From a virus (Duplodnaviria > Caudoviricetes), in the IMG/VR virus record IMGVR_UViG_3300043447_000134, positions 1 through 31,439 of that record: a DNA stretch of 31,439 bases, one strand, 5' to 3'. Shown here one piece after another: positions 15,874 through 16,874 of this stretch. A model generated the notes under the pieces. The model was not told where the DNA came from, made no database searches, and saw nothing but the letters and a program-made list of their open reading frames with translations. Position 1 is the stretch's first letter; the number at the start of each line of letters is the position of its first letter. Position numbers and translations under genes: made by a program.

Positions 15874-15892
15874 AGAACTTAATTATACACCT

Positions 15893-15986
15893 AAAATAAG
15901 AGCCCCACACAGGTAATCCAGGCACGATGGCCACGGTCATAAGTAAATGGGTAACTAAACCATCTCTAAGGTCCTGTGTGGGGACT
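15893..15986 (-). ncRNA. candidate stand-alone ~90-nt structured RNA
   Basis: Own TATAAT at 15993-15998; 11-bp closing stem CCCCACACAGG/CCUGUGUGGGG; inner stems; U-rich tail. Confidence 0.6.
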
Positions 15987-15998
15987 ATTTATATTATA

Positions 15999-16421
15999 CT
16001 ACTTGATTTTGATTGTCTTAGGCTTCTTCTCTTCTGGAATGTCACGCTTCACCACCACATAAAGCATGCCATCATTAAGATCGGCACTATCAACAAACAT
16101 ATATTCAGCAAGTGTAAAGGTACGTGTAAATTTACGTCCTGCGATACCCTTGTGAACATACTCTTCAACATCTTCTGGACGCTCACCCTTGATAGTAAGT
16201 ACTCCATCATGCTCTGTGATTTCAATAGAATCCTTGTTAAAGCCTGCTACTGCAAGCTCAACTACATAGGTATCCTCATCAACCTTGCGAACATTGTATG
16301 GAGGGAATCCAGACTGTTGATTTGTAGTATTTGTTAATCGGTTGAACATCTTGTCAAATCCGATAAAGAATGGATCATCAAATAGAGATGGTCCTGTTTT
16401 TGTATATGATACATAGTTCAT
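15999..16421 (-). CDS. small heat shock protein Hsp20 (IbpA-like)
   Basis: FPPYNV, ELAVAGF, HKGIAGRKFTRTFTL, DGML, PEEKKPKTIKI. Confidence 0.95.
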   Translation of the reverse strand: MNYVSYTKTGPSLFDDPFFIGFDKMFNRLTNTTNQQSGFPPYNVRKVDEDTYVVELAVAGFNKDSIEITEHDGVLTIKGERPEDVEEYVHKGIAGRKFTRTFTLAEYMFVDSADLNDGMLYVVVKRDIPEEKKPKTIKIK

Positions 16422-16489
16422 TTTTATTGCTCCTTTTCAGCGAGTTAAAGTATGTACCCCCATTTGGCAGGTACATATATATTATACCA
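16422..16489 (-). promoter_or_regulatory. hsp20 promoter and ROSE-like thermometer leader
   Basis: TGGTATAAT; 5' hairpin GUACC...GGUAC; CUCGCU-GAAA-AGGAG pairs the SD with a bulged G. Confidence 0.65.
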
Positions 16490-16494
16490 CTTTG

Positions 16495-16566
16495 CTCTCC
16501 CCCTAGGATTCAAACCTAGATTGCTGGTGCCAAAAACCAGAGTCCTGTCAATTGGACGAAGGGAGA
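16495..16566 (-). tRNA. tRNA-Gln(UUG)
   Basis: TCTCCCT/GGGGAGA, CTGGT-TTTTGGC-ACCAG, T-loop TTTGAAT. Confidence 0.85.
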
Positions 16567-16570
16567 TCAA

Positions 16571-16657
16571 TGAGCAGTTTACCTATTGCTAGGTGCTTCT
16601 TTTCTGCGACTCCCCGATGAAAGGGTGCAAATCCAATGCTGGTCATACTCAGGACCA
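16571..16657 (-). ncRNA. candidate pseudoknotted RNA between tRNA-Ser and tRNA-Gln
   Basis: UGGUC/GACCA stem with loop UGAGUA pairing 3' UGCUCA; ACCUA-GCAA-UAGGU GNRA hairpin. Confidence 0.7.
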
Positions 16658-16659
16658 AG

Positions 16660-16746
16660 CGGAAGAAGTAGGATTTGAACCTACGGTAGATTTTACTCTA
16701 CGGTCAGTTAGCAACCGACTGCAATAGACCACTCTGCCATTCTTCC
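16660..16746 (-). tRNA. tRNA-Ser(GCU)
   Basis: GGAAGAA/TTCTTCC, GTCGG-TTGCTAA-CTGAC, long variable arm, G73. Confidence 0.92.
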
Positions 16747-16748
16747 AA

Positions 16749-16874
16749 TGAGAACTCGGTTTATATTTCACCACTCCGTAAGGTCTGGTGCCAGTGCGTT
16801 CTCAACACTGTGCAGAAGTCTAGCTAGGGCCTTCTACAAATACTTGTTCATCCGTTAAGATAAACAGTGGTATT
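16749..16874 (-). ncRNA. candidate structured RNA between tRNA-Val and tRNA-Ser
   Basis: Two 8-bp hairpins plus CAGUGU/GCACUG stem whose loop UGAGAAC pairs 3' GUUCUCA. Confidence 0.6.

What the first reader, a model, noticed from the sequence alone, without database searches (positions are those of the whole stretch)
16571..16657. 87-nt pseudoknotted RNA between tRNA-Ser and tRNA-Gln
Minus strand: UGGUC-[CUGAGUAU]-GACCA, then a stem with UUUGC/GCAGA and CCC/GGG, then ACCUA-GCAA-UAGGU (GNRA tetraloop), then AAAC-UGCUCA. Loop UGAGUA pairs UGCUCA (6 bp), so the pseudoknot clamps both inner hairpins. An A-rich linker before the pseudoknot strand is typical of ligand-binding or catalytic H-type pseudoknots. 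I cannot assign it to a named family.
Basis: seen in the sequence. Interest (0 to 1): 0.8.

Follow-up and report, generated by a model that had tools for sequence, protein, structure and literature searches.

The report
Pseudoknot-clamped RNA between phage tRNAs
Between two phage tRNA genes sits an optional 89-base cassette in which a tiny RNA knot, found in thousands of phage sequences, has been opened up to enclose a second conserved hairpin, so it likely yields a small RNA whose two ends are predicted to be shielded from nucleases.

Summary
The structure is real. The 87-nt element is a long-loop version of a ~27-nt H-type pseudoknot (stem, CU-RRR-YA-N loop, AAA, complement). About 6,200 stored viral stretches hold one exact form of it, both stems covary, and Rfam has no match. 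Relatives of this phage show a compensatory change in stem 1; others lack exactly these 89 nt. The enclosed hairpin is a separate conserved module, which related phages place at a promoter, upstream of the short knot. Short copies start about 5 nt after stop codons. They end just before tRNAs (gene-knot-tRNA 35, tRNA-knot-gene 2) or before ribozyme cut sites (7 downstream, 0 upstream). That points to an RNA-end protector, not an aptamer or ribozyme. The closest known fold is the plant-virus coremin xrRNA, but two of its defining features fail. Function, expression and direction of protection are untested. This scan found the short family before on other DNA and read it the same way; I found no note of the clamped long form.

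The parts
16569..16657 (-). 89-nt optional cassette filling the tRNA-Ser/tRNA-Gln spacer
   Evidence: Contigs of runs X3 and X6 (one study) join 16568 to 16658 and skip exactly 89 nt, with no letters between
16640..16657 (-). Stem 1 (5 bp) with the 8-nt loop; 5' half of the widespread pseudoknot core
   Evidence: Fold (pair probabilities 0.58-1.0 in tRNA context); compensatory G-C to A-U in relatives; family covariation
16646..16651 (-). Loop strand of stem 2 (pseudoknot)
   Evidence: Complementary to 16571-16576; predicted unpaired in the secondary structure; family covariation
16603..16631 (-). 'Module A': 5-bp stem, 1x4 internal loop, 4-bp stem, hexaloop, enclosed in loop 3 of the pseudoknot
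   Evidence: 22 distinct copies among fetched loci; the six variable pair positions are pairable in 21-22 of 22; 20 of 22 lie just after TATAAT and 19 have the short pseudoknot 26-60 nt downstream
16581..16594 (-). 5-bp hairpin with GNRA-type tetraloop
   Evidence: Fold; GCAA/GUAA in L013; no stem change seen in relatives, so no covariation; pair probability only 0.14-0.19 in the context fold, which cannot form the pseudoknot
16571..16580 (-). AAAC linker and 3' strand of stem 2; 3' half of the core
   Evidence: AAA kept in 113, 113 and 111 of 113 copies when left free; unchanged in L013 and in the contigs
16659..16746 (-). tRNA-Ser(GCT), no encoded CCA; its 3' processing would make the element's 5' end (inferred)
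16494..16566 (-). tRNA-Gln(TTG); RNase P cleavage at its 5' end would make the element's 3' end (inferred)

Best explanation
The element is a long-loop form of a widespread phage pseudoknot that likely acts as a nuclease-resistant end clamp, so that tRNA processing would release a roughly 92-nt RNA with its ends predicted to be tied together and a conserved hairpin (module A) held inside. Shown: the two covarying stems, the conserved loop bases, the module swap, the clean presence or absence of the cassette, and the family's placement after stop codons and before RNA cut sites. Inferred: (1) the tRNA array is co-transcribed; RNase P cuts before tRNA-Gln and a 3'-processing nuclease (probably RNase Z, since no CCA is encoded) cuts after tRNA-Ser. 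(2) The conserved C, U, A and AAA form base triples that make the knot compact. (3) The family's usual job is to stop 3'-to-5' exonucleases at the new 3' end of the upstream RNA. (4) In this copy stem 1 has moved to the 5' end, so the one knot covers both ends of a small RNA that relatives make from a promoter. The target of module A is unknown.
For: Of 603 distinct short copies, 46 abut a tRNA: 35 gene-knot-tRNA, 4 unknown-knot-tRNA, 3 tRNA-knot-tRNA, 2 tRNA-knot-gene, 2 tRNA-knot-unknown. The 35 fall into 6-17 clusters depending on threshold, 12 at the middle one. No nearby tRNA is on the opposite strand, and the knot usually ends 3-8 nt before the tRNA. A hammerhead core lies within 110 nt downstream in 6 of 603 (one doubtful) and a twister in 1, with 0 upstream and 0 on the opposite strand. 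Rfam supports three of these (L657, L634, L149). Stop-to-stem spacing peaks at 5 nt (81 of 436), with only 7 between -3 and +3; this fits a fold that must survive next to a terminating ribosome (inference). Cyanophage S-CRM01 has two short copies in the same tRNA-knot-tRNA position. The knot occurs in genomes without a strong RNase J match (27 of 50 over cut-off) and in a crAss-like, a Vibrio and a Moraxella phage. Module A precedes the short knot in 19 of 22 copies.
Against: There is no direct evidence of expression or of RNA ends. Only assembled contigs were available, mostly probably DNA, and the one confirmed RNA run laid did not cover the element. Most short copies lie between two protein genes with no visible cut site. 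One recurring context (minor head gene, knot, scaffold and capsid genes) fits protection of the downstream RNA better. Between two tRNAs a short knot protects nothing but itself. The knot is nearly absent from E. coli (1, 1 and 0 of 5,426 genomes for three variants), although E. coli has 3' exonucleases (recalled). Only two sequences plus one study's contigs carry this exact long form. A local 4-bp pairing of the tail with the third hairpin is a competitor (-3.8 vs -5.0 kcal/mol). The module A loci were fetched because they or their contigs hold the knot, so that association is biased.
Confidence: 0.55

Rival explanations
1. The knot is a bacterial counterpart of coremin: it blocks 5'-to-3' decay (RNase J) at stem 1, protecting the downstream RNA or leaving a short stable fragment that acts as a nuclease decoy.
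For: Strong likeness to coremin, which stalls Xrn1 one base before its hairpin: 3-5 bp stem with a C-G closing pair, loop starting Y and ending A-D, spacer with AAA then CUAC; 7- and 8-nt loops work (PMC10520033, PMC6546385). Closing pair C-G in 598 of 603 (partly selected by the search patterns) and last loop base not C in 544 of 603. Near absence from E. coli, which gave no RNase J match at 1e-30. Here stem 1 starts 2 nt after the tRNA-Ser discriminator base.
Against: Coremin's obligatory second hairpin is not enriched (65 of 600 vs 53.7 in shuffles, largest shuffle 69), and loop position 2 is U in 593 of 603, where coremin needs G. The 35:2 tRNA asymmetry and 7:0 ribozyme asymmetry point the other way. 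23 of 50 knot-bearing genomes lacked an over-cut-off RNase J match, though these are mostly incomplete MAGs.
Confidence: 0.2
2. The knot is a mechanical insulator acting on ribosomes or on transcription: it abuts the ribosome's mRNA entrance at termination, blocks scanning or re-initiation, or hinders Rho.
For: Sharp 5-nt spacing after stops and an 18-22 nt peak before SD-led starts. Coremin stalls scanning ribosomes and promotes frameshifting (PMC10520033, PMC10321173).
Against: It does not explain copies between tRNAs, including this one. No readthrough or frameshift signature: UAA in 132 of 193 close stops, median 8 codons past the stop, slippery heptamer in 7 of 347. A boxA-like ending (sequence recalled) occurs in only 7 of 603.
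Confidence: 0.1
3. The RNA binds a conserved host or phage protein, and the 87-mer is a two-site decoy (knot plus module A) released from the tRNA transcript.
For: Invariant unpaired bases across many phyla. Module A has a constant internal loop on covarying stems. The cassette is accessory. This reading is compatible with the best explanation for module A.
Against: No candidate protein was found. The invariant bases are also what base triples would need. Placement next to cut sites is not explained.
Confidence: 0.08
4. One reading: a metabolite-binding aptamer or a small self-cleaving ribozyme.
For: H-type topology with an A-rich loop 3, as in preQ1-I aptamers (recalled). An invariant unpaired A at the helix junction. 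Position at a tRNA 3' end, as for theta ribozymes (PMC10879173).
Against: Flanking genes are unrelated. No expression platform was seen. The core is only about 27 nt. Real ribozymes often follow it directly. No Rfam riboswitch or ribozyme match, even at E 10.
Confidence: 0.07

Closest known systems
Coremin motif (xrRNA_C) and Watson-Crick coremin of eukaryotic RNA viruses (PMC6546385, PMC10520033, PMC10321173)
   Same: Short stem closed by C-G, loop beginning with a pyrimidine and ending A-D, spacer with AAA followed by CU and a purine, H-type loop-spacer contact, location just after stop codons or between genes.
   Different: Found in DNA phages; 8-nt loop with U at position 2 and a covarying Watson-Crick stem 2; no second hairpin after the spacer; this copy has a 61-nt two-helix insert in the spacer; context suggests 3' rather than 5' protection.
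MALAT1/MEN-beta 3'-end module: triple helix followed by tRNA-like mascRNA cut by RNase P (recalled; also named in note e1-9710188)
   Same: A compact A-rich tertiary fold just 5' of an RNase P site, left as the new 3' end of the upstream RNA.
   Different: Bacterial-virus context, ~27-nt pseudoknot instead of a long U-A.U triplex, also precedes ribozymes, no sequence relationship.
Theta (minimal HDV-like) ribozymes of gut phages (PMC10879173)
   Same: Structured RNA beginning at the 3' end of a phage tRNA.
   Different: No nested double pseudoknot; the family is far more often upstream of tRNAs than downstream; no Rfam ribozyme match.
preQ1-I riboswitch aptamer and other minimal H-type pseudoknots (recalled)
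   Same: Topology and A-rich loop 3.
   Different: No Rfam match, no metabolic gene association, loop 3 accepts 40-70 nt inserts.

Membership tests
Coremin (xrRNA_C) | First hairpin of 3-5 bp with pyrimidine-purine (C-G) closing pair | tested here: met
   5 bp with C-G closure here; C-G in 598 of 603 short copies, partly selected by the search patterns; 123 of 140 when left free
Coremin (xrRNA_C) | Loop consensus YGAD / YGNNAD (G at position 2) | tested here: not met
   Loop is C-U-G-A-G-U-A-U. Position 2 is U in 593 of 603; in the scan that left it free, none of the pattern-conforming copies had G there. First and last positions do fit.
Coremin (xrRNA_C) | Conserved spacer of about 10 nt with AAA and CUAC | tested here: inconclusive
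   AAA-CU-(G/A)-C is present, but this copy's spacer carries a 61-nt insert
Coremin (xrRNA_C) | Second hairpin directly after the spacer | tested here: not met
   65 of 600 vs shuffled mean 53.7; here only AUUGA and then the tRNA follow
Coremin (xrRNA_C) | Stalls a 5'-to-3' exoribonuclease | not testable with these tools
   Needs an in vitro decay assay
Theta / HDV-like ribozymes | Nested double pseudoknot matching an HDV-like model | tested here: not met
   No Rfam match at E up to 10; predicted fold is a single H-type knot
Theta / HDV-like ribozymes | Located at a tRNA 3' end | tested here: met
   Starts 2 nt after the tRNA-Ser discriminator; true for only 7 of 46 tRNA-adjacent short copies
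Self-cleaving ribozymes (any class) | Site-specific self-cleavage | not testable with these tools
   Needs a co-transcriptional cleavage assay
Rfam riboswitches (preQ1, SAM-II/V and others) | Match to the family covariance model | tested here: not met
   no hit over the motif in the window or in the homologous loci scanned
Rfam riboswitches (preQ1, SAM-II/V and others) | Consistent downstream gene class tied to a ligand | tested here: not met
   Downstream are scaffold, helicase, PhoH-like, primase, tRNAs, DUF2800 RNA and ribozymes; most of the 50 flanking ORFs scanned had no PHROG hit

The most novel reading that the evidence does not exclude
Bacterial viruses of many phyla use a coremin-like, nuclease-resistant pseudoknot as a portable RNA end. 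This phage lineage has re-permuted it into a 5'-3' clamp around a cargo hairpin, turning a tRNA spacer into an expression cassette for a stable small RNA: a natural, circle-like RNA scaffold matured entirely by host tRNA-processing enzymes.
Probability: 0.4. Interest if true: 0.82.

Novelty: new variant of a known kind. Interest (0 to 1): 0.66.

Why it matters
Exoribonuclease-resistant RNAs are known from eukaryotic RNA viruses, and my literature searches found none described for phages. A 27-nt element at thousands of phage gene junctions, often directly before tRNAs and ribozymes, would help explain how phages that cut their own transcripts keep the pieces. The biological role of phage ribozymes is stated to be open (PMC6765202). 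The long form shows that loop 3 accepts whole domains, which is a testable structural constraint and suggests a compact stabilising scaffold for bacterial RNA work. Its Watson-Crick stem 2 may also help resolve the coremin fold, unsolved in the 2023 papers I read.

Tried and rejected
Rfam: no family over the element or its homologues. Folding energy alone gives no signal. One search used a linker one base too short and caught only the 25-nt form plus chance hits; it was repeated correctly. The metagenome scan for long forms with a terminal GNRA hairpin gave 59 loci, nearly all without stem 1, so mostly chance; they were excluded from all family counts. The viral scan for knot plus tRNA-Gln gave 7 loci, of which only L833 (the same contig as L013) is real. 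Of the 20 long hits, three are tandem short copies. Sequencing runs: nine listed, none holding half the words; six were laid, all as contigs, so there is no information on expression, strand or ends. Gene-orientation tests (convergent vs divergent) were too noisy without a gene caller. RNase J co-occurrence was run on 50 of 119 genome loci and was not decisive. Readthrough, frameshift, boxA, U-tract terminator (51 of 603) and ACCA ending (25 of 603) were rejected. No cultured phage holds the long form or module A. Literature: ten searches found no description of this motif in phages. The alignments of Fremin et al. (PMC10690425) could not be searched (3 of 6 held files unsearched, 3 more unreadable), so the short motif may be among their 10,006 candidates. 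The library lacks most subscription journals.

Full report
Setting. The window is a tailed-phage fragment with terminase, endolysin, DNA polymerase, UvsX-like and Hsp20 genes. The host was not determined. The element fills the spacer between tRNA-Ser (16659-16746) and tRNA-Gln (16494-16566) in a seven-tRNA minus-strand array. Neither flanking tRNA encodes CCA.

Observation. Folding energy is unremarkable (z -0.13), but a 6-bp loop-to-tail match arose in only 1 of 500 shuffles. Rfam has no match over the element, even at E 10.

The core is a widespread short pseudoknot. With the gap reduced to 0-30 nt, the pattern hits about 1,200 stored viral stretches. With stem 1 free it hits about 6,200, and about 700 stretches in GTDB genomes of many phyla. 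These are the tool's estimates from partial scans and count stretches, not genomes. With stem 1 free, its four pairs hold in 130, 130, 132 and 103 of 140 copies. On 58 distinct strand pairs, 0, 0, 0 and 1 of 2,000 column shuffles reach the observed values. When the middle A of stem 2 is forbidden, the three pairs hold in 100, 114 and 115 of 116, and the partner of that position becomes C (G-C) in 109. By shuffling, only the inner of these three is significant (0 of 2,000; the others 64 and 132). The next position is C in 87 and U in 36 of 123, opposite G, as RNA pairing allows. The AAA is near-invariant when free (113, 113, 111 of 113). The A after Y is kept while its partner varies, so that contact is probably not a plain pair. 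Shuffles ignore relatedness.

Long forms exist. One search gave 20 loci; three are tandem short copies, and 17 (nine lineages by eye) carry 40-70 nt inserts that fold into hairpins. Two lineages other than ours end 7-10 nt before a tRNA, and one starts 7-8 nt after a stop, as short copies do. A looser metagenome pattern returned mostly chance hits, so long-gap matches need stem 1 as a filter.

This copy. L013 differs at five positions, none breaking a stem. Contigs from a freshwater study add a compensatory change in stem 1, a U-to-C change opposite G in stem 2, and three pairable states of one inner pair. Contigs from a wastewater study join the two tRNAs and skip exactly 89 nt, so the element is an optional cassette. 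Its inner hairpin (module A) recurs in related Hsp20-bearing phages. Of 22 distinct copies, 20 lie just after TATAAT, 19 have the short knot 26-60 nt downstream, and 2 (window, L013) lie inside loop 3. These loci were selected through the knot, so the association is biased. The simplest reading (inference) is a rearrangement: relatives make promoter - module A - optional hairpins - stem 1 - tail, whereas here stem 1 has moved in front of module A and the tail stays last.

Context of the family. Among 588 short copies with enough flank, 436 follow an open frame. Stop-to-stem distance peaks at 5 nt (81), then 6 (47) and 7 (34), with 10 at 4 nt and 7 between -3 and +3. Another 27 frames end at the motif's own UGA, a peak mirrored on the opposite strand and so probably chance. 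Annotated phages agree. There is no readthrough or frameshift signature. Of 603 copies, 46 abut a tRNA: 35 gene-knot-tRNA against 2 tRNA-knot-gene, in 6-17 clusters. Hammerhead cores follow in 6 (one doubtful) and a twister in 1, never upstream or antisense; Rfam supports three. S-CRM01 has two short copies between tRNAs, as here. RNase J passes its cut-off in 27 of the 50 genomes tested, out of 119 loci. It passes in 0 of 61 genomes of the order holding the Pseudoalteromonas-labelled carrier, and gave no match at 1e-30 in the E. coli and Bacteroides controls. Crass-like, Vibrio and Moraxella phages carry good copies. E. coli genomes essentially lack the three variants tried, which remains unexplained.

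Mechanism. The best reading is an end-protecting knot, mainly against 3'-to-5' decay, which in this copy clamps both ends of a spacer RNA released by tRNA processing (0.55). The main rival is a coremin-like 5'-to-3' block (0.2); others are a ribosome or transcription insulator (0.1), a protein decoy (0.08), and an aptamer or ribozyme (0.07). No expression or end data were obtainable.

Known systems. Coremin is the closest fold, but position 2 of its loop and its second hairpin fail here, so this is a look-alike and not a member. I reached the 3'-cap reading, before one search showed three earlier notes with the same reading. The coremin lead came from notes, and I checked it in the papers. No note matched the long form by sequence or by words. 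Papers seen: passages of PMC10520033, PMC10321173, PMC6546385, PMC10879173, PMC6765202, PMC3088659, PMC5737381 and 10.64898/2026.09.22.753630; abstract and outline of PMC12397905; passages, section 2.5 and three of six held supplements of PMC10690425. The statement that the motif is not in print rests on the searches and on Rfam 15. The MALAT1, preQ1-I, boxA and ribosome-footprint points are recalled.

Verdict. A real, uncatalogued, accessory structured RNA: a new long, clamped variant of a pan-phage coremin-like pseudoknot. Interest 0.66.

Noticed in passing
window 16749-16810, minus strand (spacer before tRNA-Ser): A second, different pseudoknot: a 5-bp stem (16806-16810 with 16792-16796) whose loop UGAGAAC matches GUUCUCA at 16749-16755, with a hairpin inside loop 3, ending 2 nt before tRNA-Ser. 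One relative contig changes the A16809-U16793 pair to U-A.
   Followed up: partly
window 15880-15995, minus strand: Long hairpin-like RNA after hsp20, behind a TATAAT (fold z -2.9 against mononucleotide shuffles). It occupies the slot where relatives carry module A plus the short knot; similar sequences occur in L836 and L838.
   Followed up: partly
L841, L845, L847-L853, just after hsp20: A further conserved hairpin ('module B', GUCG...CGAC with a bulged AG) between module A and the short knot; no Rfam match.
   Followed up: no
L622 (three copies) and L634 (one copy), directly after the short knot: An unknown hairpin-plus-pseudoknot element sits where hammerheads sit in other copies; no Rfam match. 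Candidate uncatalogued ribozyme or processing site.
   Followed up: no
L727:428-583 and L711:274-393: The short knot directly precedes a DUF2800 RNA (L727) and a tmRNA-like tRNA-like domain below the gathering score (L711); both may be cleavage substrates.
   Followed up: no
L766:11911-11997 (Synechococcus phage S-CRM01): A tRNA-Ser that is missing from the record's annotation lies just before the first short knot; coordinates approximate.
   Followed up: no
window 16416-16476, minus strand: The hsp20 leader gives a weak ROSE_3 thermometer match (21.1 bits, gathering 43, E 0.07), with a similar weak match in L013.
   Followed up: no
E. coli genome collection: The short knot is essentially absent from 5,426 E. 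coli genomes for three variants tried, and no Escherichia or Salmonella phage appeared among the organisms listed in four phage searches.
   Followed up: partly
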